NCBI GenBank assembly: GCA_041653215.1
Contig: JBAZFW010000001.1
Coordinates: 19,202-83,201 of the forward strand
Length of the DNA: 64,000 nt
From: Patescibacteria group bacterium
Lineage (GTDB): Bacteria; Patescibacteriota; Patescibacteriia; Patescibacteriales; GWC2-42-12
Direction: 5' to 3'
The translations under genes and the position numbers were made by a program. The first letter of the stretch is position 1. Every line of letters begins with the position of its first letter. Below are positions 2,819 to 45,898 of the stretch, piece by piece. Below the pieces are notes generated by a model that had not been told where the DNA came from, did no database searches, and was given only the letters and a program-made list of their open reading frames with translations.

Positions 2819-3328
2819 TTAATTCCAGGCGGGTAAATCTGTCGGAACCGACATTGAATCGCCGGTTTCCGTACTTGCAATGATCTCATATGCGCCATTT
2901 TTCCTGGCGTCAAGGCGATAATAAATACTCGCCTGGTTTAGGAGCAACCACTTATCTCCGAACTTGCCCCAAATCCTGATCCAATAAGTTCCCTTTTCCA
3001 AATTCAATTCTGCGATTGCAAAACCGCGATCTTCCTTGGTGTCTACAGCATACTGGCCATCAATTGACACCGGCGTCCAACCTTCAGGGCCTGCTTTGCG
3101 AATGCTCATGTATAGCTGAATCGCGGGCGCTCCTTTACCTCTCTGTAACATGGAGATCGGGACCGCAATTGACATCTTATTAGCAGTTCCTTCGGGACCG
3201 ATTTTCAGGTCGGATGTAAAACCACCGCCTGCCTTAGCGACTGATTTATTCGCGGGCAAAGTAATGCCGGCGAAAGCTGTCGCGCTCAACAAAACGACTA
3301 ACGCAAAAATACATAATACTTTTTTCAT
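2819..3328 (-). CDS. secreted hypothetical protein (signal peptide)
   Basis: N-terminus MKKVLCIFALVVLLSATAFAG; strong SD AAGGAG 7 nt upstream; higher GC than the flanks. Confidence 0.6.
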   Translation of the reverse strand: MKKVLCIFALVVLLSATAFAGITLPANKSVAKAGGGFTSDLKIGPEGTANKMSIAVPISMLQRGKGAPAIQLYMSIRKAGPEGWTPVSIDGQYAVDTKEDRGFAIAELNLEKGTYWIRIWGKFGDKWLLLNQASIYYRLDARKNGAYEIIASTETGDSMSVPTDLPAWN

Positions 3329-3357: not shown

Positions 3358-4971
3358 TTATGGTTTATTTTTTATTTCTATCGGCTCTACCTTTTTAGTT
3401 GTAAGCCAATTCCAAAGATCGTCAACATACTGACTTAAATCCAACGTGATATAAATCGGATGTTGTTGATCGCCGTCGCCACCGAAAATTTCTTTGTAAC
3501 CAGTGCCGACATTAAAAAATTTCACGTTTTTATAAGCGACCTTGATGTTCGCCATAATCTCGCCGAAATTAATTAATCCGTCGCTCGCTAAATCGCGCTG
3601 AGATAAACCAAACTCTTTTCCAACGCCCAGCTTAACTGCCGGGGTTATCCGCCAATTGCCAAAATGAAAATCATAAATGGCTTGATCGACGGTGAGCTCA
3701 TAAACCTTGTTATCGCTTGGGTCAGGAGGTAAAGCTCCGTCTTCCCACCGATGTTTATGCTCGGCGTTAAAAACATGACGATACTCAGCGTTCAGCTCTG
3801 TCTCAGGAAGAAAATTTTTACCTTCAACTCTTCTCGGATAATAATTGAGATGAGCAGAAATAATACCTATAGTATCTTCCTGTTTGCTGCGATATATGCC
3901 TGAACCACCTTGTTCTACTCTAGTGTCACCAAACCCGCCTTGATTGTAAAGTTTACCGAACATCGCGTCGATGTCACCGTCGTAATGTTTCTGCGGGTTT
4001 ATGAACTTCAAAGAAGGACCGATAGCCCCTTCTTTCCATTCATAATCGTAATTACGATCGTGGCCTTCACCACCGGCTAAGAACAATGCAACTCCTCCAT
4101 AATAATCGGTGTTGCCAATTTTACCGATGAAACACCGCTCCCTGGCTTTGAGCCAGTAGTAATAGCCAGCGGCATCCTGATCGGGATGGGAATTCTTGTA
4201 ATTCCCGGCTCCCATAATCAGGTCGGTTTTGCAATACCCGTTGTATTCGGAGCACGGCTCTTCCTTGGACTCTTCAACCGGAGTTTCTTCCGGAGGAATC
4301 AGCAGAGCCATAGGCTCTTCGGGCGGTGCAGGCACAGGCTCGGGAATTATTTCCGGTTCGGGCGGTGCAGGCACAGGTTCAGGAACCATTTCTGGTTCCG
4401 GAGACTTGGCTTCTTTCCACCATGCCCAATTACCACAAACTGCTGGTCTAATCAGGAAATAAACTTCATCGCCTAAATCAACTTTGGCAAAAAGCTTTGC
4501 TTCAAGCTGATCTTCGGGTAATTTCACAACAACATTGTCGACAACCTTGTAGTTGCCAAAAATCTGTTGTTCTAATTCCTGACCTTCCGTCATCTGGTAG
4601 GCTTCAAATTCACCCTTTTCGGCTGCAGTAATGAATGCTGCTTTAACCTCTTCTGAAATATTGAAGAGGCTAATCGCCTTAACAACATTTCTGTCGCCGA
4701 AGGGGTTAACTCCACCTTTCTTCCAAACAAAACATTTTTTAGATGCTTTTGCTTGGGGAATCTGGAGTTTTTGACCTACATAGATTAAATTGAAATTTTT
4801 AATCTCCTTGTTCGCCTGGTAAATGGTTACCCATTTAACATTATACTGCTTGGCGATCGAGGAGAGACATTCTCCCTTCTTAACAATGTGTTCGCGCGCC
4901 TGGGCAAGCCCGGTCACGCAAAACATCATTAAAAAGGAAACTATAGCTACTGCAAAAAATGTCTTTTTCAT
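3358..4971 (-). CDS. secreted LysM-domain protein with a Pro-rich tandem repeat and a large G/Y/N/D-rich C-terminal domain
   Basis: Signal peptide; LysM 'HIVKKGECLSSIAKQYNVKWVTIYQANKEIKNFNLIYVGQKLQIP'; repeat EPE..PEPVPAPP x2; SD AAGGAG. Confidence 0.75.
   Translation of the reverse strand: MKKTFFAVAIVSFLMMFCVTGLAQAREHIVKKGECLSSIAKQYNVKWVTIYQANKEIKNFNLIYVGQKLQIPQAKASKKCFVWKKGGVNPFGDRNVVKAISLFNISEEVKAAFITAAEKGEFEAYQMTEGQELEQQIFGNYKVVDNVVVKLPEDQLEAKLFAKVDLGDEVYFLIRPAVCGNWAWWKEAKSPEPEMVPEPVPAPPEPEIIPEPVPAPPEEPMALLIPPEETPVEESKEEPCSEYNGYCKTDLIMGAGNYKNSHPDQDAAGYYYWLKARERCFIGKIGNTDYYGGVALFLAGGEGHDRNYDYEWKEGAIGPSLKFINPQKHYDGDIDAMFGKLYNQGGFGDTRVEQGGSGIYRSKQEDTIGIISAHLNYYPRRVEGKNFLPETELNAEYRHVFNAEHKHRWEDGALPPDPSDNKVYELTVDQAIYDFHFGNWRITPAVKLGVGKEFGLSQRDLASDGLINFGEIMANIKVAYKNVKFFNVGTGYKEIFGGDGDQQHPIYITLDLSQYVDDLWNWLTTKKVEPIEIKNKP
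4321..4398. repeat. 2 x 39-bp tandem repeat inside the LysM gene (13-aa Pro-rich unit)
   Basis: 'gggcggtgcaggcacaggctcgggaattatttccggttc' is followed by 'gggcggtgcaggcacaggttcaggaaccatttctggttc'. Confidence 0.85.
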
Positions 4972-5232: not shown

Positions 5233-6258
5233 TTATTTCTTTATTCTGCTATTATATTCCAACACACAACTATTATACTGCTCGTATGTGTTGGCATCTT
5301 TACAGGGCGTTCCCTGGATCGATAACTTCATCTTCTGAGTTAAAGGATGTTCGGATTGCGGCGCTACAACAGCTTTCTCATTAAGAGCAGCTTGTTGATT
5401 GGCGAAAATCTCAAGTCCGATTTGGACTATCTCCGCCACATTAGCCGCATCAGGCATATATGTTCTATAGCCTGGCCGATCAATTTTATCCTCGAAAATC
5501 TTCGGGAGTTGCACGACTTTCACTATCCCGGCGACAATAAAGGTTTGACTTGCACCAATAAATGGTATAGTCGCATAAAGATACCAACCTTTATTAAGAA
5601 AATCTAGAAACGCTCTTGCAGTTGAATCTTCCCTGCAAATCTGTTCGAGCCTTTCTTTACTAATGTTGTAATTGTTAGCGGCAAACTCGACGCCGTACTT
5701 TTTTTCGAATTTCTCGGAAGTTTCCCGGAATTTAATAAACTCGGAATCGTTGTAAGTTCTTACTATCTCCGAATTTTCGTTTACTTCCTTCACTAAATTG
5801 GGATTGACTTCAAAAAAATCTCCAAAACTTTCCGGCTTAAAATCTTGCCAACTATCTATAGGCATACCATTGCCGCTGGCGTTGTAAGCTACCCGGCCTA
5901 AACGGTCGAATACCACAACATATTTTACATCTTCTTTGCGTAAAGCGCCGGACGGTTCGAATATATCCATCCGCAATCTGTTTGATTTGTGCGAAGGATT
6001 AACCGCCCGCAATTGGTACGTCTTGCCGTTCTTGTCTTGAACATAAGACGGCCAGACTATGCTTTGCTGAATACCGGTAGACATCAACTCTAATGGATTT
6101 TGAATTACCGTAATCCATACGAATTTTTCGGCTTTTGTCTCATTGAGATTTGGCACTGCGTGCATATCTGCCCTATTCATCATCGGTTTTGGGAAACAAC
6201 CATATACAACAATCAACGCGACCATCAGCAGGATGGTCATAAAAATATTTCTTTTCAT
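5233..6258 (-). CDS. putative lipoprotein, hypothetical
   Basis: MKRNIFMTILLMVALIVVYGC (lipobox-like VYGC); SD AAGGAGG; no recognisable catalytic motif. Confidence 0.55.
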   Translation of the reverse strand: MKRNIFMTILLMVALIVVYGCFPKPMMNRADMHAVPNLNETKAEKFVWITVIQNPLELMSTGIQQSIVWPSYVQDKNGKTYQLRAVNPSHKSNRLRMDIFEPSGALRKEDVKYVVVFDRLGRVAYNASGNGMPIDSWQDFKPESFGDFFEVNPNLVKEVNENSEIVRTYNDSEFIKFRETSEKFEKKYGVEFAANNYNISKERLEQICREDSTARAFLDFLNKGWYLYATIPFIGASQTFIVAGIVKVVQLPKIFEDKIDRPGYRTYMPDAANVAEIVQIGLEIFANQQAALNEKAVVAPQSEHPLTQKMKLSIQGTPCKDANTYEQYNSCVLEYNSRIKK

Positions 6259-8200: not shown

Positions 8201-9526
8201 TTAATTATTCTTTACTTTTACAATTTTACCTATTAATTTATTATTTCCATCTATTTTTGAACCAAAAATCTGACGTTTATCAACCTCAATATCAAAATAA
8301 TATTCGGTCTTGCCGATTAGTTTATCCTGTTTAATTTGCTCTATAACAATTTCCAATTTTTTACCCTTGAATTTTCTTTTATAATCTCTCATTAATTTAA
8401 CGCCGAACTCTCTTAAAATTTTAGCGCGTTTAGCTTTAATTTTCTCTTCTACTTGATTAGGAAATTTAGCGGCAGGCAGTTTAGCGTGAGCCGAAAAAGG
8501 AAATATATGTAAACGGCTAAATTTTATTTCTCTAATAAATTTTTTCGTCTCTATAAAATCTTTTTCCGTTTCTCCGGGGAAGCCGACGATTACGTCCGTA
8601 GTAATGGCGACGTCTGGCATGGCTCGCCTAATTTTTTTTACTTTATCTAAAAAATATTTTTTGCTATATGGCCGATTCATTAATTTTAAAATTTTATCAG
8701 AACCTGATTGCAAAGGAATGTAAAGATGCTGGCAAATTTTTTTTGAATTCGCTATTAGCTTTATCAAATCATCTGATACTTCGGTAACTTCGATTGAACT
8801 TAAACGCACTCTTCCTAAATCATTAATTTTAATTATTTTTTTTAACAAACTGACCAGATTGTCATTGCGAGGAGCGTCAGCGACGTGGCAATCTAACTTA
8901 CTATTTACTTTGAAATTTGTCCGTGAGATTGCTTCGCTCCTTTTAGTCGCTCGCAATGACAGTTGTCTTTCTTTACCGTAAAGCCCTAAGTGTATGCCGG
9001 ATAAAACAATTTCTTCATACCCAGTCTTAACCGCTCTTTTAATCTCGCAAATAATTTCTTTTTCTCCCCTGCTTTTTAATTTGCCTCGCGTGTATGGCAC
9101 TATACAATAACTGCAATATTGCTCGCAACCATCTTGAATTTTAATAAAATAACGAGAACGATTTTCTTGTTTTACTTCTTTAATTTTATTCGCCACTAGC
9201 AATTTGCAATTAGTAATCTTTTTAACCAAACTATATATCTTATCTCTGTTCATAACATAATCAACATCAGCGTCTTTTGTCTTATAAGCTTTAGGCCAGC
9301 AACCAGTTAAAATAATTTTAGCTTTAGGATTTTCTTTTTTTGCCAGCTTAACCATGCGTCCACTTTTTATTATGGCCGTTTTAGTAACAGCGCAACTATT
9401 AATTATTGCTATACCTGCATTTTTATTAACCATAGTAAATCCGGCCGTTTTTAAACTTGTGGCTAACGAGCCTGAATCATACTGATTAACTTTACAGCCT
9501 AAGGTGTAAATTTTATATGTCTTCAT
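8201..9526 (-). CDS. mtaB: MiaB-family radical SAM methylthiotransferase, MtaB-like, carrying an in-frame repeat-element insertion
   Basis: 'YTLGCKVNQYDS' UPF0004 domain; 'CEQYCSYCIVPYTRG' radical SAM; C-terminal TRAM-like region. A ~37-aa insert 'RQLSLRATKRSEAISRTNFKVNSKLDCHVADAPRNDN' is encoded by the element at 8861-8961. Confidence 0.8.
   Translation of the reverse strand: MKTYKIYTLGCKVNQYDSGSLATSLKTAGFTMVNKNAGIAIINSCAVTKTAIIKSGRMVKLAKKENPKAKIILTGCWPKAYKTKDADVDYVMNRDKIYSLVKKITNCKLLVANKIKEVKQENRSRYFIKIQDGCEQYCSYCIVPYTRGKLKSRGEKEIICEIKRAVKTGYEEIVLSGIHLGLYGKERQLSLRATKRSEAISRTNFKVNSKLDCHVADAPRNDNLVSLLKKIIKINDLGRVRLSSIEVTEVSDDLIKLIANSKKICQHLYIPLQSGSDKILKLMNRPYSKKYFLDKVKKIRRAMPDVAITTDVIVGFPGETEKDFIETKKFIREIKFSRLHIFPFSAHAKLPAAKFPNQVEEKIKAKRAKILREFGVKLMRDYKRKFKGKKLEIVIEQIKQDKLIGKTEYYFDIEVDKRQIFGSKIDGNNKLIGKIVKVKNN
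8861..8961. repeat. MITE-like palindromic element (~101 bp) inside the mtaB coding sequence
   Basis: gtcattgcgaggagcgtcagcgacgtggcaatct ... gtgagattgcttcgctccttttagtcgctcgcaatgaca. Same architecture as 36823-36929 and 45792-45898. Confidence 0.8.
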
Positions 9527-9538
9527 ACTATTTTATTT

Positions 9539-9596
9539 GTCATTGCGGGCACCCCGCCTAGACTCGTTAGGCGAGGCTGGCGACCCGCAATCTAGA
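9539..9596. repeat. short REP-like hairpin (GTCATTGCGGG...CCCGCAATCTAGA), long-loop variant
   Basis: Arms gtcattgcggg / cccgcaatctaga; same family as 33655, 40171 and 40433. Confidence 0.65.
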
Positions 9597-12964: not shown

Positions 12965-13303
12965 TTAAACAATCTTTGTAATTTCTATTTTAGTGAAAGG
13001 CTGTCTATGACCGACATTCTTTTTATATCTGGTTTTATTTTTAAACTTTACTACGCTGACTTTTTTAGCCTTACCCTGCTCTAAAATTTTACCTTCCACT
13101 ATATCGCCTAAACCAGGTGCGCCTATTTTAATATTTTCTCCTTCGGCAACAAGTAAAGTCTGAAATTTCAAAGCCTGACCGGCTTCACCGTTAATTTTTT
13201 CAATTCTTAAATTTTGTCCTTGAGCAACCTTATATTGTTTGCCACCGGTTTTAATAACTGCTATTTTTACCCCGTTAGATAGTTCATTTTTTTTAATTGC
13301 CAT
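12965..13303 (-). CDS. rplU: 50S ribosomal protein L21 with a ~13-aa N-terminal extension
   Basis: 'IAVIKTGGKQYKVAQGQNLRIEK'. The extension MAIKKNELSNGVK is encoded by the leader module. Confidence 0.9.
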   Translation of the reverse strand: MAIKKNELSNGVKIAVIKTGGKQYKVAQGQNLRIEKINGEAGQALKFQTLLVAEGENIKIGAPGLGDIVEGKILEQGKAKKVSVVKFKNKTRYKKNVGHRQPFTKIEITKIV

Positions 13304-13378
13304 ATGTTTAGATATAATAGCCCCGCTATATAAATATAATAAAAATAAAGTTATCAGCTTTATCTAACGGGGTGAATA
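13266..13378 (-). promoter_or_regulatory. three-part leader module (A / A' / A''), rplU copy
   Basis: mRNA sense: A CACCCCGTTAGATA; A' TATATAGCGGGGCT; ATG; A'' ATCTAACGGGGTA (codons 8-12). A:A'' is a perfect 12-bp complement. Confidence 0.55.
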
Positions 13379-36379: not shown

Positions 36380-36808
36380 TTATTTCTTCCCTGTTTTTAT
36401 CTTAATCGTTTTTGGTTTAGTTCCTAACGCTTTCGGAACCACGATTTTCAAAATTCCATTAACCGCTTCGGCGCTAGCTTTTTCGCCTAAAACATGCGAC
36501 GGTAAAGGCACGCTTCTATAGAAACTGCCGCGTCTAATTTCTTTTCGGTAATAATTTTTGTCTTCCACTTCGCTTTTCTTTTCGCTTTCGCCTTTAATGG
36601 TTAAAACATTATTTTCAATGGAAATATCAACTTTTTCCGGATCAATTCCGGCTAATTGCGTTTCAATATAGACTTTATCTTTATCTTGATAAACGTCTAT
36701 GGCCGGAACGTAACCGGTAAAACCGGTTCTAGCCGGCATAAAATCTTCAAACATTTTATCCATATCCTCGAAAGATTCGAGCGATGGCATCCATTTTATA
36801 ATTGGCAT
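36380..36808 (-). CDS. Hsp20/alpha-crystallin small heat-shock protein
   Basis: 'PAIDVYQDKDKVYIETQLAGIDPEKVDISIENNVLTIKGE', 'GILKIVVPK'. Confidence 0.92.
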   Translation of the reverse strand: MPIIKWMPSLESFEDMDKMFEDFMPARTGFTGYVPAIDVYQDKDKVYIETQLAGIDPEKVDISIENNVLTIKGESEKKSEVEDKNYYRKEIRRGSFYRSVPLPSHVLGEKASAEAVNGILKIVVPKALGTKPKTIKIKTGKK

Positions 36809-36822
36809 ATATTTGTTGTTGC

Positions 36823-36929
36823 GTCATTGCGAGGAGCGTAGCGACGAAGCAATCTCACGGACATCAATCTTTTATCTAAACTTGCCATTCGTGAGATTGC
36901 TTCGCTCCTCTTGGTCGCTCGCAATGACA
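36823..36929. repeat. MITE-like palindromic element (~107 bp), intergenic
   Basis: gtcattgcgaggagcgtagcgacgaagcaatctcac...gtgagattgcttcgctcctcttggtcgctcgcaatgaca. Confidence 0.85.
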
Positions 36930-36938
36930 TCTTAAAAA

Positions 36939-37472
36939 TTATTTTTTTAATTTATAAACTATAACTTTTACCGGCTCTATAATCTTCCCATTTAATTTAT
37001 AGCCAGCCTTAATTTCTTTAGCTACTAAACCATCTAATTTTTCGTCTTCCGTTTCTTCATTGCTTAACGCATCCATTAAATTATGATCAAATTTTTTATC
37101 TTTAACCTTTATTTCTTCAACGCCAATTTTTTCTAAAACATCTTTGAATTGTTTAACTACATGTTTTACTCCGGTTAACCATTCGTCAGCCGACTCAGCA
37201 TTATGATGCGCAATAGCCATTTTTAAATGATCATATACCGGCAAAATTTCTCTTAACATCTGCTCGTTAGCATAAACCGCGAATTCCATTTTTTCTTTAG
37301 CCGTCTGCTTTAATAAATTTTGATAATCAGCTAAAGCACGTTTATATTTATCCTTAAAACTTTTTTCATCATCTAAAGTCTTTTCATCTTTTGAAATTTC
37401 CGAAATTTCATCTTCAATTTTTTCTTCATTCTCTTTATTTTTTTCTTCACTCACCCCATTAGAAGTTTGCAT
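36939..37472 (-). CDS. grpE: nucleotide exchange factor GrpE
   Basis: 'YKRALADYQN', 'LPVYDHL', C-terminal beta domain 'GYKLNGKIIEPVKVIV'. Confidence 0.92.
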   Translation of the reverse strand: MQTSNGVSEEKNKENEEKIEDEISEISKDEKTLDDEKSFKDKYKRALADYQNLLKQTAKEKMEFAVYANEQMLREILPVYDHLKMAIAHHNAESADEWLTGVKHVVKQFKDVLEKIGVEEIKVKDKKFDHNLMDALSNEETEDEKLDGLVAKEIKAGYKLNGKIIEPVKVIVYKLKK

Positions 37473-37539
37473 ATTAATTGTTTTATTTATGAATACCCCA
37501 TTTAAGTCCAGTTTCGCTAGGACTTCTAACGGGGTAAAT
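37452..37539 (-). promoter_or_regulatory. three-part leader module, grpE copy
   Basis: mRNA sense: ATTTACCCCGTTAGAAGTCC-tagcgaaact-GGACTTAAATGGGGT-24 nt-ATG CAA ACTTCTAATGGGGTG. Confidence 0.55.
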
Positions 37540-37543
37540 AATA

Positions 37544-38248
37544 TTATTTCTCCATCAATATATTATTAATAAATTTAACTAAAGCTAAATTTTTTTCATA
37601 ATCCATTCGCATCGGACCTAAAATTCCGAATAAACCGACATTATTATGAAGTTTATATTTAATTAAAATCGTACCGCAAAAATCCCCAAAAGGATTATCG
37701 GCGCCAAGAAAAATTTGCGGACCGGCTTCAAGCTTATTGTAAATACTATCAATTATTTCATCCACCCGATCAATAATTTGCGAAATGTCGTAAATTAATT
37801 GAGTCTCGTTAAATTCCGGCTGGGATAATAAATTTGAAATGCCGGTATAATATAAATTATTGCGGTGAAAAGCCCAAAAAACCGCGTTGCCGGAAACCTT
37901 AGCCAACTCTTTAGCCGTTTGCTTAAAACTTAATTCGTCTTTATTTTTTAATAATTTAGTAAAACTTTTAGTTTCTAAAGCGCCTAATTTTTTTTCAACT
38001 AAGTTTTTGATATACAAATTATAGGCTTTCTCGGTTGGGATGCGTCCGGCTGAAGTGTGCGGCTGCGCAATATAGCCGGCTTCTTCAAGATCAGCCATTT
38101 CATTTCTAACCGTAGCCGAAGAAATATTTAATTTATATTTATCAACTAAAACTTCTGACCCTACAGGAGCGCCAGTTTTTATATGTTCTTTAACGATGGT
38201 ATTTAAAATTAAAGCTTTTCTTTCATCCACCCCATTAGAAGTTTTCAT
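37544..38248 (-). CDS. hrcA: heat-inducible repressor HrcA (short, 234 aa)
   Basis: wHTH 'GAPVGSEVLVDKY..ISSATVRNEMADLEEAGYIAQPHTSAGRIPT'; CIRCE lies directly upstream. Confidence 0.88.
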   Translation of the reverse strand: MKTSNGVDERKALILNTIVKEHIKTGAPVGSEVLVDKYKLNISSATVRNEMADLEEAGYIAQPHTSAGRIPTEKAYNLYIKNLVEKKLGALETKSFTKLLKNKDELSFKQTAKELAKVSGNAVFWAFHRNNLYYTGISNLLSQPEFNETQLIYDISQIIDRVDEIIDSIYNKLEAGPQIFLGADNPFGDFCGTILIKYKLHNNVGLFGILGPMRMDYEKNLALVKFINNILMEK

Positions 38249-38314
38249 AAATTTTAGTTATTATCAACCCCATTTAGTAGTTTCTTTTTCCCTAGAAACT
38301 TCTAACGGGGTAAA
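38228..38314 (-). promoter_or_regulatory. three-part leader module, hrcA copy
   Basis: mRNA sense: ATTTACCCCGTTAGAAGTTTC-tagggaaaaa-GAAACTACTAAATGGGGT-21 nt-ATG AAA ACTTCTAATGGGGTG. Confidence 0.55.
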
Positions 38315-38323
38315 TATATTATC

Positions 38324-38362
38324 ATTATATAACATTTAGCACTCCTGTCAAGAGAGTGCTAA
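38324..38362 (-). promoter_or_regulatory. CIRCE operator overlapping a sigma70-type promoter
   Basis: TTAGCACTC-N9-GAGTGCTAA is perfect at 38336-38362. On the minus strand, TTGACA sits in the spacer, then 16 nt, then TATAAT (38324-38329). Confidence 0.9.
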
Positions 38363-44501: not shown

Positions 44502-45782
44502 TTATAATTTAAACTCCCCTGCCTGTTCTAATATTTTTTCTTCATCCAAAGTTTTAACTTCTCTATTTTTCATAATAACTTTTCCATTTACAATTACATT
44601 TTCTACGTCATCCGCATTAACGCAATAAACTAAATGCGAATACGGATCGTAAATCGGCGTTAAATGCGGCTTATTTAAATTAATTGTAATTATATCGGCT
44701 TTTTTACCGACTTCAAGCGAACCAATTTCTTTTTCCATACCTATTACTTTTGCGCCGTCAATCGTCGCCATTTTAACTACTTCGCGAGCGCTAATCGCCG
44801 TCGGATCAAAATTATTTACTTTATTTATTAAAGCAGTAGCGCGCATATCGGAAAATAAATCCAAAGTGTTATTACTAGCCGCGCCGTCAGTGCCTAAACC
44901 GACAGTAATTTCCATCTCTAACATTTTTTTAAGTGGCGCTACGCCTGAAGCTAATTTCATATTACTAATCGGACAATGCGCGACTTTTACACCTCTCTTT
45001 TTATAAATTTCTAAATCGCTATCGCTAAGCCAAACGCTATGCGCTGCCATTAATTTATCTGACAACATACCCAATTCTTCTAAATATTCAACCGGCAATT
45101 TGCCATTATTTTTTATAGAATCTTCAACTTCTTTTTTAGTTTCGCTTGCATGAATATGAATGCGCAAACTTTCCTCTTCAGCAACTTTTTTAATTTTTAA
45201 TAAATTTTCCTTTGAACAAGTGTAAATTGCGTGCGGCGCTAAAACAATTTTTATAAATTCATTATTTTTATATCTTTTTGATAATTCAATCGCTTCTTTT
45301 AAAGCTAAATCTGGATCTTTAAAATCTATCCCGGTAATACCAATTAAAGCTCGTAAATTACTTTTAATTGCCGGTTCGGACATAGCCTCGCCGAAAAAAT
45401 ACATATCATTATAACTCGTTACTCCGGCCTTAATCATTTCTAGACAGGCTAACTCGCTCGCCTGTTTTACAAATTCAGCATTAACATATTTAGCTTCAGC
45501 CGGCCAGATATGTTTATTTAACCAAACGTCCAAAGGCAAATCATCGGCTAGCCCGCGAAAATATGTCATAGCCGCATGCGTATGCGTATTTATTAAACCT
45601 GGCATAACAATCGAATTTCCCGCGTCAATTATTTCTTTAGCCTGATATTTTTCAATTTCACTAATCTCACCTAAGGAAACAATTTTATTTTCAGACACGG
45701 CAACAAAACCATTTTCAATAATAGTCAGCTTTTCATCCATGGGTAAAATATATTTTCCTTTTATAATTAAATCGCATCGCAT
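44502..45782 (-). CDS. mtaD: amidohydrolase, 5'-methylthioadenosine/S-adenosylhomocysteine deaminase-like
   Basis: 'PGLINTHTHAAMTYFRGLADDLPLDVWL', 'HASET', 'GLGTDGAASNN'. Start moved to ATG 45782 (MRCDLIIKG...); the track's first 15 codons are read from the repeat element. Confidence 0.75.
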   Translation of the reverse strand: MRCDLIIKGKYILPMDEKLTIIENGFVAVSENKIVSLGEISEIEKYQAKEIIDAGNSIVMPGLINTHTHAAMTYFRGLADDLPLDVWLNKHIWPAEAKYVNAEFVKQASELACLEMIKAGVTSYNDMYFFGEAMSEPAIKSNLRALIGITGIDFKDPDLALKEAIELSKRYKNNEFIKIVLAPHAIYTCSKENLLKIKKVAEEESLRIHIHASETKKEVEDSIKNNGKLPVEYLEELGMLSDKLMAAHSVWLSDSDLEIYKKRGVKVAHCPISNMKLASGVAPLKKMLEMEITVGLGTDGAASNNTLDLFSDMRATALINKVNNFDPTAISAREVVKMATIDGAKVIGMEKEIGSLEVGKKADIITINLNKPHLTPIYDPYSHLVYCVNADDVENVIVNGKVIMKNREVKTLDEEKILEQAGEFKL

Positions 45783-45791
45783 ATATATTCT

Positions 45792-45898
45792 GTCATTGCG
45801 AGGAGCGTAGCGACGAAGCAATCTCACGAACTATAAACTTTTTTCTAAACTCACCATCAGTGAGATTGCTTCGTTTCTTTCAGAAACTCGCAATGACA
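45792..45898. repeat. MITE-like palindromic element (~107 bp), intergenic
   Basis: gtcattgcgaggagcgtagcgacgaagcaatctcac...gtgagattgcttcgtttctttcagaaactcgcaatgaca. The left arm is identical to the one at 36823. Confidence 0.85.

What the first reader, a model, noticed from the sequence alone, without database searches (positions are those of the whole stretch)
37452..38314. Recurrent three-part leader/start-codon module: identical 15-mer inside the first codons of unrelated genes (hrcA and grpE copies)
Seen in sequence, in mRNA sense. Each copy has four parts:
- A = ATTTACCCCGTTAGAAGT.
- A variable loop, then A', an imperfect complement of A ending in ...A(A/T)(A/G)TGGGGT.
- An 18-24 nt AT-rich spacer, then ATG and one variable codon.
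- A'' = ACTTCTAATGGGGTG, a better complement of A (15 bp with one G.U).
A and A'' are nucleotide-identical in the hrcA, grpE and iscS copies, including synonymous positions. Three unrelated proteins therefore all begin M-x-TSNGV. A' differs between copies but keeps its pairing to A. A can pair with either A' (a local hairpin) or A'' (which encloses the start codon), so the two folds exclude each other.
The GUG that ends A'' would give canonical N-termini: MDERKALIL for HrcA and MKQIYLDH for the desulfurase. The true start codon is therefore ambiguous.
Inference, three options:
- a translational switch or thermosensor;
- an initiation platform in an organism whose native genes here lack Shine-Dalgarno sequences;
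- a small mobile start cassette.
I do not recognise it as a described RNA family.
Basis: partly seen in the sequence, partly recalled or inferred. Interest (0 to 1): 0.78.

Follow-up and report, generated by a model that had tools for sequence, protein, structure and literature searches.

The report
Mobile palindromic start-codon cassette
The repeated "leader" is a roughly 85-base mobile palindromic DNA element that has jumped exactly into the start codons of hrcA, grpE, a cysteine desulfurase gene and rplU, bringing a replacement ATG with it. It belongs to an apparently undescribed family found across many bacterial phyla, whose other copies mostly sit in-frame inside essential genes.

Summary
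A and A'' are identical in three copies, with about 0.04–0.1 chance matches expected, and a fourth diverged copy sits at rplU.

It is not a gene-specific RNA switch. A and A'' are the 13–14 bp terminal inverted repeats (CCCCGTTAGAAGN) of a MITE-like element. At least 182 unique copies turned up in Patescibacteria, Planctomycetota, Omnitrophota, Nitrospirota and others.
- Copies are usually flanked by 4-bp TNNA direct repeats.
- Lengths are biased to multiples of 3.
- Many copies are read in-frame (xPVRS…TSNGV) inside DnaE, CarB, Mfd and SecA.

A subfamily carries an ATG next to the right arm and sits exactly on start codons. Sister strains keep empty sites for grpE, iscS and hrcA. All three show TTTA+CCCC…GGGG inserted between the A and the TG of the original ATG. 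The GTG ending A'' is therefore the arm's last G fused to the old TG.

The internal ATG is the likely start. A' is a degenerate third arm that may keep the arm stem from closing over the start; this is inferred.

Thermosensor and riboswitch readings are not supported. The "mobile start cassette" reading is.

The transposase is unknown, and a piggyBac/IS1380-like mechanism is only inferred. I rate it a new variant of a known kind (MITE, like Rickettsia palindromic elements).

The parts
38230..38314 (-). hrcA copy, the whole inserted segment (TTTA + CCCC…GGGG, 85 nt). It lies between the A (38315) and the TG (38229-38228) of the original hrcA ATG.
   Evidence: The empty site in L216 (a relative 90% identical in amino acids) reads …TATAATggtaatatATGGACGAAAG.
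   Evidence: family consensus
38267..38285 (-). hrcA copy, A': a degenerate third arm (AGAAACTACTAAATGGGGT) that pairs with A.
   Evidence: The A:A' hairpin scores -21.9 kcal/mol. In the duplex test against shuffles, sister-strain versions of this copy (L144, L120) give p≈0.04-0.05; the window's own hrcA copy was not in the test set.
38246..38248 (-). hrcA copy, the element-borne ATG, which is the likely functional start.
   Evidence: ATG-NNN-arm is conserved in every copy from the window lineage. The HrcA profile starts at residue 8.
The GTG at 38230-38228 is the arm's last G plus the old TG.
38336..38362 (-). CIRCE operator (TTAGCACTC-N9-GAGTGCTAA) overlapping the hrcA promoter. The -35 TTGACA is at 38351-38346 and the -10 TATAAT at 38329-38324. 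The predicted transcription start is about 38317, just upstream of arm A.
   Evidence: Sequence; 12/12 promoter match. This is host context, not part of the element.
37454..37538 (-). grpE copy, the whole inserted segment (TTTA + CCCC…GGGG, 85 nt). It starts 5 nt after the hrcA stop codon (37546-37544).
   Evidence: The empty site in L120 (a strain about 95% identical) reads …GAAATAATATTATGAGTGAAGAAAAA. L121 and L192 carry the insertion.
37522..37535 (-). grpE copy, left arm A.
37494..37507 (-). grpE copy, A' (ACTTAAATGGGGTA).
   Evidence: The hairpin scores -21.5 kcal/mol. The sister-strain grpE copy in L192 gives p=0.007 in the duplex test; the window's own grpE copy was not in the test set.
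37470..37472 (-). grpE copy, element-borne ATG.
37453..37466 (-). grpE copy, right arm A'' (junction GTG at 37454-37452).
60288..60369 (-). Cysteine desulfurase (nifS/iscS) copy, the whole inserted segment (TTTA + CCCC…GGGG, 82 nt).
   Evidence: Empty sites in L207/L208 (…TTATTTTATGAAACAAATT…) and in L209. L210 carries the insertion.
60353..60366 (-). iscS copy, left arm A.
60324..60339 (-). iscS copy, A' (GAACTTATAGTGGGGT).
   Evidence: The hairpin scores -12.8 kcal/mol.
60304..60306 (-). iscS copy, element-borne ATG.
   Evidence: Annotation pipelines disagree on the start: JGI aa from a GTG inside A', and NCBI aa from the junction GTG.
60287..60300 (-). iscS copy, right arm A'' (junction GTG at 60288-60286).
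13269..13373 (-). Fourth, diverged copy at the rplU (L21) start. Its parts are: left arm ACCCCGTTAGATA at 13373-13361; A' at about 13330-13320; ATG at 13303-13301; right arm CTATCTAACGGGGT at 13282-13269. The junction codon is GTA, which is not a start codon.
   Evidence: The L21 profile starts at residue 14-15. Both arms carry the same GAAG-to-GATA change.

Best explanation
**What it is.** The module is a non-autonomous mobile DNA element, MITE-like and about 80-105 bp long. A and A'' are its terminal inverted repeats (A-CCCCGTTAGAAG-N … N'-CTTCTAA(C/T)GGGG-T).

**The wider family.**
- It is spread across many bacterial phyla.
- It normally inserts with a 4-bp TNNA target duplication.
- It survives inside genes because total insertion length is a multiple of 3 and the arms read as xPVRS…(T/A)SNGV.

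**The window copies.**
- They belong to a 'start-cassette' subfamily whose AT-rich interior carries an ATG in frame with the right arm.
- This subfamily lands on start codons. The target 4-mer is TG(A/G)(A/G), beginning with the TG of the ATG.
- In the window lineage the inserted segment is TTTA+CCCC…GGGG, placed between the A and the TG. The old ATG is destroyed.
- Translation then restarts at the element's ATG, giving M-x-T-S-N-G-V fused to residue 2 of the native protein. The junction GTG is a fossil of the old start.

**Shown versus inferred.**
- Shown: mobility (empty and filled sites), family membership, the insertion point, and N-terminal add-ons relative to family profiles.
- Inferred: that the internal ATG is the codon used.
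- Inferred: that A' acts as a decoy. It pairs with A co-transcriptionally, so the roughly 20-bp A:A'' stem does not close over codons 3-7.
- Inferred: that copies in other lineages which keep the old start codon use a short upstream reading frame through arm A for the same purpose.
- Inferred: that TTTA is a flank carried over from the donor site, as expected for a piggyBac/IS1380-like hairpin mechanism.
For: 1. **Same arms across lineages.** The arm pattern occurs in at least 119 GTDB loci from Patescibacteria, Planctomycetota, Omnitrophota, Elusimicrobiota, Nitrospirota/Nitrospinota, Desulfobacterota-type MAGs and others. It also occurs in 84 metagenome loci, giving 182 unique copies.
2. **Target duplication.** Flanking 4-mers are identical in 69 of 119 copies, with consensus T-N-N-A, G enriched at -5 and C at +5/+6.
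3. **Length bias.** CCCC…GGGG length is 2 mod 3 in 77 of 121 copies, so insertion plus duplication is a multiple of 3.
4. **In-frame host genes.** Internal copies are open and in frame within DnaE, CarB, Mfd (two species, same site), SecA and others.
5. **Three empty sites in close relatives.** These are grpE (L120), iscS (L207, L209) and hrcA (L216, L212). Each shows TTTA+CCCC…GGGG between the A and the TG of the ATG.
6. **Many start-codon copies.** 26 unique start-cassette copies sit at the starts of L13, S9, L21, AhcY, ThyA, KsgA, GDH, AtpA, RecA, Ung and MarR. In 10 of them the old start codon is still visible as (A/G/T)TG(A/G)(A/G)|CCCC, and in 9 of those the same 4-mer is repeated on both flanks as a true duplication.
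7. **N-terminal add-ons.** Family profiles begin right after the arm.
8. **Recurrent target.** A distant lineage has an independent insertion at the same hrcA start codon, by a different arm subfamily (L213-L215).
9. **Symmetric arms.** Position 13 is Watson-Crick in 174 of 182 copies, using four pair types, and the rplU copy changed both arms together.
10. **Not catalogued.** There is no Rfam family and no Pfam or NCBIfam family for the peptides.
Against: - **No transposase found.** There is no recurrent neighbouring gene. There are no long elements bounded by the arms. A remembered IS1380 transposase sequence gave no hit in 1.4 Mb of loci.
- **Arm conservation is unusual.** Identity across phyla is extraordinary for an ordinary MITE. 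Together with covariation in the interior hairpins, it points to a constraint at the single-strand level that I cannot name.
- **No ordinary duplication in the window lineage.** The left flank is always TTTA, so a standard DDE cut-and-paste event does not fully describe these insertions.
- **The arm stem should impede initiation.** If arm A is transcribed, as the hrcA promoter implies, the equilibrium fold buries codons 3-7. Use of the internal ATG then relies on an untested kinetic argument.
- **The start codon is unproven.** NCBI's pipeline picks the junction GTG, and no expression data were available.
Confidence: 0.8

Rival explanations
1. Cis-regulatory RNA switch or thermosensor. A pairs with either A' (start open) or A'' (start closed), and heat or a ligand shifts the balance to control hrcA, grpE and iscS translation.
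For: - Two mutually exclusive folds exist, and both are stable: -13 to -22 kcal/mol against -29 to -31 kcal/mol.
- The hrcA promoter places A at the 5' end of the mRNA.
- Three of the four host genes are stress-related.
Against: - The same cassette sits at rplU in the window, and at rplM, rpsI, recA, thyA, ksgA, ahcY, atpA and ung elsewhere.
- Close relatives lack it at all three genes.
- Interiors share no conserved sequence that could bind a ligand.
- The predicted unpaired probability of +4..+18 stays at or below 0.27 from 20 to 65 C. Known RNA thermometers use weak, mismatched stems; that statement rests on general knowledge.
- The arms are shared with hundreds of intragenic copies.
Confidence: 0.05
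2. The element is mobile but has been co-opted. In these organisms, which largely lack Shine-Dalgarno sequences, the cassette would serve as a portable expression or initiation module. It could carry its own -10-like box after A' plus an AU-rich spacer and an ATG. Alternatively, A:A' could act as a stabilising 5' hairpin.
For: - Only 9 of 57 window genes have an SD-like motif.
- ATG-NNN-arm spacing is fixed across about 10 genes of the lineage.
- A' is significantly complementary to A in about half of the start cassettes tested.
- By eye, a TATAAT-like box follows A' in most copies (sequences).
- The iscS copy is far more conserved than its flanks: 80/82 against about 85%.
Against: - The simple promoter scan finds no internal promoter.
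- TATAAT-like hexamers are common by chance in 35% GC DNA.
- Orthologues without the element are the majority.
- The hrcA copy diverges at least as fast as its flanks.
Confidence: 0.12
3. The element is only a 5'-UTR insertion. Translation still starts at the junction GUG (the old start position), and the in-frame ATG is incidental.
For: - The junction GTG gives canonical N-termini (MDERK…, MKQIYLDH…).
- NCBI annotation uses it for the desulfurase.
- Arm G plus the old TG always regenerates GTG when the target is a start codon.
Against: - The junction codon is not a start codon in rplU (GTA), L179 recA (GCG), L189 (GTT), L071 rpsI (GCA), L091 (GCC), L110 (GGC) and L041 (GCG), yet the ATG is kept.
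- ATG at a fixed in-frame distance is conserved in every start-site copy, while the rest of the interior drifts.
- The GUG lies inside the strongest (GGGG/CCCC) part of the arm stem.
Confidence: 0.1
4. A DNA-level regulatory palindrome, either an operator for a transcription factor or an invertible (phase-variable) segment bounded by the inverted repeats.
For: There are perfect 13-14 bp inverted repeats, and clusters of half-sites occur in some loci.
Against: - Copies have target-site duplications and empty sites.
- Most copies lie inside coding sequences of unrelated genes in many phyla.
- Spacing between the arms varies from 35 to 90 bp.
- No recombinase or regulator gene recurs nearby.
- The interior hairpins co-vary, which points to a single-stranded form.
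Confidence: 0.03

Closest known systems
Rickettsia palindromic elements (RPEs; Ogata et al. 2000, as summarised in PMC10969869)
   Same: - Short palindromic mobile repeats inserted in-frame into unrelated, often essential, protein-coding genes and translated as extra peptide segments.
- No coding capacity of their own.
- Predicted to form stable hairpins.
   Different: - There is no match between the element-encoded peptides and NCBIfam models.
- This family is shorter, at about 66-110 bp.
- It has a sharply defined 13-14 bp terminal repeat conserved across phyla, and a 4-bp TNNA duplication.
- It has a subfamily that replaces start codons.
- RPEs are confined to Rickettsia.
Bacterial MITEs in general, and Neisseria Correia elements in particular (PMC2649163, PMC10969869)
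   Same: - Terminal inverted repeats, a target duplication, many copies, and presence/absence polymorphism between strains.
- When transcribed, the repeats of Correia elements pair into a hairpin that affects expression of the adjacent gene. That hairpin can be bound or cut by RNase III. Correia elements can also supply promoter parts.
   Different: - Correia elements duplicate TA, are restricted to one genus and sit between genes.
- Here the element enters the start codon itself and supplies the initiation codon.
- The family spans phyla, and no parent insertion sequence is known.
piggyBac / IS1380 superfamily transposons (PMC5861402, PMC10813416)
   Same: - A 4-bp target of the form T-N-N-A (piggyBac uses TTAA).
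- Terminal repeats that begin CCC and contain TAGAA (piggyBac CCCTAGAAAG…; here CCCCGTTAGAAG).
- In piggyBac the flanking 4 nt become part of a hairpin on the excised transposon end. That would explain a donor 4-mer (TTTA) travelling with the element, and also seamless excision.
   Different: - No transposase of this or any other family was found.
- The resemblance in repeat sequence is short and was noticed by eye.
- The target is not restricted to TTAA.
- This is a lead, not a classification.
RNA thermometers and riboswitch expression platforms (ROSE, fourU, etc.)
   Same: Alternative pairings exist, one of which occludes the translation initiation region.
   Different: - There is no conserved sensor domain.
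- The stems are too long and stable.
- The element is not specific to one regulon, is polymorphic between strains, and has copies inside coding sequences.

Membership tests
MITE (miniature inverted-repeat transposable element) | Terminal inverted repeats | tested here: met
   There are 13-14 bp arms in 182 unique copies. Position 13 is complementary in 174 of 182.
MITE (miniature inverted-repeat transposable element) | Target-site duplication | tested here: met
   Flanking 4-mers are identical in 69 of 119 copies, with consensus TNNA. The window-lineage copies are an exception: the left flank is always TTTA and the right flank is the target sequence.
MITE (miniature inverted-repeat transposable element) | Small, non-coding and multi-copy within a genome | tested here: met
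   Copies are 66-110 bp. There are 4 copies in this 64-kb window, several loci hold 2-4 copies, and nested copies occur.
MITE (miniature inverted-repeat transposable element) | Presence/absence polymorphism at orthologous sites | tested here: met
   Empty and filled alleles were found for grpE, iscS and hrcA.
MITE (miniature inverted-repeat transposable element) | A parent autonomous insertion sequence with the same terminal repeats | tested here: inconclusive
   None was found in 1.4 Mb of flanking DNA. Whole genomes could not be searched.
Rickettsia palindromic elements | Sequence membership in an RPE family | tested here: not met
   The element peptides gave no NCBIfam or Pfam hit, even at E≤10. 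The host range is also different.
Rickettsia palindromic elements | In-frame insertion in protein-coding genes | tested here: met
   Copies sit in-frame in DnaE, CarB, Mfd, SecA and others, and there is a mod-3 length bias of 77/121.
piggyBac / IS1380-mobilised element | Cognate DDE/DDD transposase of the IS1380/piggyBac family | tested here: inconclusive
   The local phmmer search found nothing, but it used a transposase sequence recalled from memory and covered only the fetched loci.
piggyBac / IS1380-mobilised element | 4-bp target duplication and seamless excision | tested here: inconclusive
   A 4-bp TNNA duplication is present. Empty alleles are exact, but whether they represent excision or the ancestral state cannot be told.
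RNA thermometer / riboswitch | Conserved sensor structure with covariation, tied to a regulon | tested here: not met
   Interiors are unrelated between copies. A and A'' are invariant, so they give no covariation signal. Host genes are unrelated. There is no Rfam match.
RNA thermometer / riboswitch | Temperature-labile occlusion of the start region | tested here: not met
   The predicted unpaired probability of +4..+18 is nearly flat from 20 to 65 C. This is a computation only.

The most novel reading that the evidence does not exclude
This is a cross-phylum family of structured palindromic elements that moves by a flank-carrying, seamless (piggyBac-like) or homing-like mechanism. It preferentially hits start codons and carries a self-contained rescue kit: a new ATG, plus either a decoy arm or an upstream reading frame to keep the arm stem from closing the start. 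On this reading it rewrites the N-termini and initiation signals of essential genes across uncultivated bacteria.

The iscS data hint at spread of one copy to the same start codon in lineages whose genes differ by about 15%. The element itself is 80/82 identical, and the two filled alleles share about 20 nt of flank on each side. That pattern looks like site-specific re-insertion, or gene conversion after DNA uptake.
Probability: 0.25. Interest if true: 0.8.

Novelty: new variant of a known kind. Interest (0 to 1): 0.62.

Why it matters
1. **Annotation.** Gene callers disagree on the starts of affected genes. The same desulfurase is called at 413, 405 and 399 aa. Hundreds of proteins in uncultivated lineages carry element-derived segments (xPVRS…TSNGV) that could be mistaken for lineage-specific insertions.
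2. **Mobile-element biology.** One 13-bp terminal repeat is conserved from Patescibacteria to Planctomycetota. Copies keep co-varying internal hairpins and multiple-of-3 lengths, and there is no visible transposase. A widespread mobilising activity therefore remains to be identified.
3. **Translation.** The start-codon cassettes are natural experiments in initiation without a Shine-Dalgarno sequence. An essential gene's native start is replaced by an ATG that lies a few nucleotides from a stem of about 20 bp.
4. **Population genetics.** Filled and empty alleles offer strain-level markers, and possibly evidence for DNA exchange among candidate-phyla-radiation bacteria.

Tried and rejected
- **Known RNA family.** Rfam gave nothing at gathering thresholds on the whole window, nor at E≤5 on the copies and on a canonical element. 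Only chance microRNA-like hairpin hits appeared.
- **Transposase search.**
  - All-against-all comparison of 915 ORFs next to the copies found no recurrent family; the largest cluster covered 5 of 119 loci, all housekeeping genes.
  - Arm pairs 130-6000 bp apart were nested copies or separate small elements.
  - A phmmer search with a remembered IS1380 transposase found nothing.
- **Phage carriage.** Only 1 hit appeared in 2.9 million viral contigs.
- **Translational bypassing or intron-like removal.** I considered this because the direct repeats could serve as take-off and landing codons. I rejected it because internal copies are open and in-frame (19 of 26 with long ORFs on both sides) and lengths are biased to multiples of 3. 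The few exceptions look like gene junctions or start cassettes.
- **Integron attC site.** The core motifs are in the wrong order, and the host genes are housekeeping genes.
- **Genome-wide leaderless transcription as the reason for start-codon targeting.** No sharp -10 peak appears at a fixed distance from the ATGs. Only hrcA clearly shows TATAAT-8 nt-ATG.
- **Internal promoter in the cassette.** The consensus scan did not detect one.
- **Interior copied from the target's upstream region.** Only short AT-rich matches were seen, which is not convincing.
- **Literature.** Searches by sequence, peptide and keywords found no description of this element. Subscription journals are not covered.
Full report
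**1. The observation**

All coordinates are on the minus strand. The 18-mer A (ATTTACCCCGTTAGAAGT) occurs at 37539-37522, 38315-38298 and 60370-60353. The 15-mer A'' (ACTTCTAATGGGGTG) occurs at 37466-37452, 38242-38228 and 60300-60286. Shuffled sequence gives 0.04-0.11 matches where 6 are seen, counting both arms.

Each copy reads A, loop, A', a 17-22 nt AT-rich spacer, ATG, one codon, A''. The host genes are:
- HrcA (family profile position 1 aligns to residue 8);
- GrpE;
- a NifS/IscS-type cysteine desulfurase (profile position 1 aligns to residue 10).

A fourth, diverged copy lies at the start of rplU (13373-13269). Its two arms carry the same change (GTTAGATA / TATCTAAC). The L21 profile begins at residue 14-15, directly after the arm.

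The A:A' hairpin alone is worth -21.9, -21.5, -12.8 and -18.5 kcal/mol in the four copies. The global minimum is an A:A'' stem of about 20 bp enclosing the ATG, at -28 to -31 kcal/mol with z down to -6.

**2. What A and A'' are**

The hits come from:
- Saccharibacteria, Kaiserbacteria, Falkowbacteria and many other Patescibacteria;
- Planctomycetota (Pirellulales, Phycisphaerae);
- Omnitrophota, Elusimicrobiota, Nitrospirota/Nitrospinota;
- several deltaproteobacterial-type MAGs, including high-GC contigs that cannot be mis-binned CPR DNA.

A narrower pattern found 84 metagenome loci. Viral contigs gave a single hit. In all, 182 unique copies were collected.

The arms are almost invariant. Position 13 varies but stays complementary in 174 of 182 copies, using four pair types, whereas positions 14 and 15 pair at chance level.

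The 4 bases on either side are a direct repeat in 69 of 119 copies. The consensus is T-N-N-A, with G enriched at -5 and C at +5/+6, which is the signature of a target-site duplication.

The interior is hypervariable between subfamilies. In GC-richer hosts it folds into two or three hairpins. For one subfamily, a three-way junction is supported by compensatory changes: 10 pairs changed on both sides, and 0 of 500 shuffles reached the covariation score. That test used 8 sequences, which I selected.

**3. Copies inside genes**

The length from CCCC to GGGG clusters at 62, 65, 68, 71, 74, 77 and 80. It is 2 mod 3 in 77 of 121 copies, so insertion plus duplication is a multiple of three.

Many copies are spanned by long ORFs in one frame, read as xPVRS…(T/A)SNG(V/A). 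Hosts include DnaE, CarB, Mfd (the same site in two Pirellulales species), SecA and a sulfatase-like protein.

Among copies with at least 120 open codons on both sides, 19 of 26 are in-frame and stop-free. The rest look like gene junctions or start cassettes. I therefore rejected translational bypassing and RNA-level excision. No Pfam or NCBIfam model, including the RPE models, matches the encoded peptides.

This behaviour is that of Rickettsia palindromic elements (PMC10969869), but in a different, much more widespread family.

**4. Copies on start codons**

Twenty-six unique copies have an ATG inside the interior, in frame with the right arm. In each, a stop lies upstream and a long ORF lies downstream.

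Their hosts are housekeeping genes:
- rplM and rpsI in a Kaiserbacterium;
- ahcY, thyA, ksgA, gdh, atpA, recA, ung and a marR-like gene.

In 10 of these copies the old start codon is still visible just left of the element. In 9 of those the same 4-mer is repeated on both flanks as a true duplication that begins with the TG of the original start codon. Examples are cATGGA|CCCC…GGGG|TGGActac (AhcY), tATGAA|…|TGAAgcag (ThyA) and cATGAG|…|TGAGaaga (KsgA).

The old start codon then opens a 7-26-codon upstream reading frame (M-D/N/S-P-V-R-S…). This frame runs through arm A and stops between -30 and +53 nt from the new ATG.

In the window lineage, which is Falkowbacteria-like by protein neighbours, all of about ten genes show TATTTA|CCCC on the left and TG.. 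on the right.

**5. Proof of mobility and the exact insertion point**

Sister strains provide empty sites for three of the window's copies.

| Gene | Empty allele | Sequence at the empty site | Window (filled) |
|---|---|---|---|
| grpE | L120 (about 95% identical strain) | …GAAATAATATTATGAGTGAAGAAAAA… | …AATATTA[TTTACCCC…GGGG]TGAGTGAAG |
| desulfurase | L207/L208 (93% aa), L209 (85% aa) | …TTATTTTATGAAACAAATT… | insertion present; also in L210/L211 (88% aa) |
| hrcA | L216 (90% aa), L212 (88% aa) | CIRCE-TTGACA…TATAATggtaatatATGGACGAAAG | insertion present |

In each case the inserted segment is TTTA+CCCC…GGGG (85, 82 and 85 nt), placed between the A and the TG of the ATG. The placement has a one-base ambiguity. 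The TTTA is not present in the empty alleles.

The junction GTG is therefore the arm's last G joined to the old TG.

The internal ATG is the likely start, for three reasons:
- It is kept at a fixed in-frame distance while the rest of the interior drifts.
- In rplU, recA (L179), L189, rpsI (L071), L041, L091 and L110 the junction codon is not a start codon.
- The GUG lies in the strongest part of the arm stem.

This remains an inference. NCBI's pipeline calls the GTG and JGI's calls a GTG inside A'.

A distant lineage (HrcA 68-70% identical) carries independent insertions of the GATA-arm subfamily at the same hrcA start codon. One has a true TGGA duplication (L213/L214) and one has TTTA on the left (L215). 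Start codons of the form ATG(A/G)(A/G) are thus recurrent landing sites. About 14% of unique copies are at starts, although start codons should make up roughly 1% or less of TNNA sites. I cannot separate target preference from survivorship.

**6. How it probably works at the RNA level (inferred)**

The hrcA promoter is a 12/12 consensus overlapping CIRCE, with its -10 ending at 38324. Before insertion, the -10 lay 8 nt from the ATG, giving a near-leaderless mRNA. After insertion, arm A is at the 5' end of the transcript.

The grpE copy starts 5 nt after the hrcA stop codon, so it is transcribed as well.

At equilibrium the arm stem buries codons 3-7. The mean unpaired probability of +4..+18 is 0.004-0.21 at 37 C and hardly changes between 20 and 65 C. 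This argues against a thermometer.

The stability of the A:A' hairpin suggests that A' acts as a decoy. It forms first during transcription and keeps A'' single-stranded. Complementarity between A and A' is significant in about half of the start cassettes tested (p = 0.003-0.05) and absent in the Kaiserbacteria type. That type instead keeps the old ATG and an upstream reading frame across A. Both devices would open the stem.

No internal promoter was detected by the consensus scan. A TATAAT-like box follows A' in most copies, but such boxes are common in this 35% GC DNA.

**7. How it probably moves (inferred, weak)**

No transposase was found.

Three features recall piggyBac and its prokaryotic relatives, the IS1380 family:
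- the 4-bp TNNA target;
- arms that begin CCC and contain TAGAA;
- a donor-type 4-mer (TTTA, a common duplication in AT-rich hosts) that travels with the element.

In piggyBac the flanking TTAA becomes part of a hairpin on the excised end, and excision is seamless (PMC5861402, PMC10813416). With non-identical donor and target 4-mers, such a mechanism predicts one donor-derived and one target-derived flank. That is what is seen.

Selection against the retained upstream ATG, or gene conversion between copies, are alternative explanations.

**8. An unexplained result**

The desulfurase copy is 80/82 identical between the window and L210. Their flanking DNA is only 84-85% identical (1020/1199), so about 12 differences would be expected (Poisson P about 4e-4). 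Meanwhile the window's closest relative, L207 (93% identical in flanks), is empty.

The two filled alleles also share about 20 nt of immediate flank on each side that differ from each one's nearest empty relative. This suggests either recent arrival of the same copy at the same site in two lineages or a very short gene-conversion tract.

The hrcA copy, by contrast, diverges like its flanks.

**9. Verdict**

- The RNA-switch and thermosensor readings are not supported.
- The 'small mobile start cassette' reading is supported.
- The element is not in Rfam, Pfam or NCBIfam, and I found no description in the searchable literature.
- It works like an RPE or MITE but is a new family. Its unusual traits are cross-phylum arm identity, structured interiors, in-frame design, and derivatives that replace start codons.

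Noticed in passing
window 8861-8960, 36823-36928, 45792-45897 (also single arms near 9539, 33671, 36326): A second, unrelated palindromic repeat is present. It has roughly 38-bp inverted ends (GTCATTGCGAGCGAC…GGAGCGAAGCAATCTCACG / CGTGAGATTGCTTCGTCGC…CTCGCAATGAC). One copy lies inside the intact ORF 8201..9526, apparently in-frame. Two lie just upstream of gene starts (the HSP20-like gene 36380..36808 and ORF 44502..45827). IscS homologues from other Patescibacteria start with its translation (MRLLRRPLAARNDRYM…; P0016, P0038, P0051). The same genome therefore holds two different elements that colonise gene starts.
   Followed up: partly
L210 vs window 60288-60369; L207, L209: The desulfurase copy is 97.6% identical between two lineages whose flanks are about 85% identical, and it is absent from the closer relative. 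The filled alleles share about 20 nt of flank on each side. This could mean homing-like conversion or repeated site-specific insertion.
   Followed up: partly
L120 3710-4585; L212, L214 (downstream of hrcA); window 36939-37472: In sister strains and in more distant relatives, the gene after hrcA is a NUDIX-GrpE fusion (291-310 aa). The window strain has a 177-aa GrpE without the NUDIX domain. The deletion or fusion boundary lies right next to the inserted element.
   Followed up: no
window 37544-38248: HrcA in this clade is only 228 aa (234 aa with the element), against 338 positions in the TIGR00331 profile. It matches in two stretches and scores below the curated cut-off (187 vs 197 bits). 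CIRCE is nevertheless intact.
   Followed up: no
window, all gene starts: Only 9 of 57 genes have an SD-like motif. Strong AAGGAGG sites are seen upstream of several ORFs whose products begin MKK… and look secreted (for example 2819..3328, 3358..4971, 5233..6258). Other genes have AATAT-like AU-rich sequence directly before the ATG.
   Followed up: partly
L054 864-1008, L104 1348-1480, L090 711-910, L112 4127-4327, L186 3560/10142: There are nested copies (an element inside an element) and extra degenerate arms next to complete copies in several genomes. This suggests insertion into existing copies or repeated activity at the same spots.
   Followed up: no
L003, L016 (Aureispira MAG): The pattern also matched a different palindrome (CCCCTTTAGAAGG…CCTTCTAAAGGGG within longer GGGGGATT…/CTAGGGGG repeats). 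This is probably an unrelated repeat family caught by the degenerate pattern.
   Followed up: no
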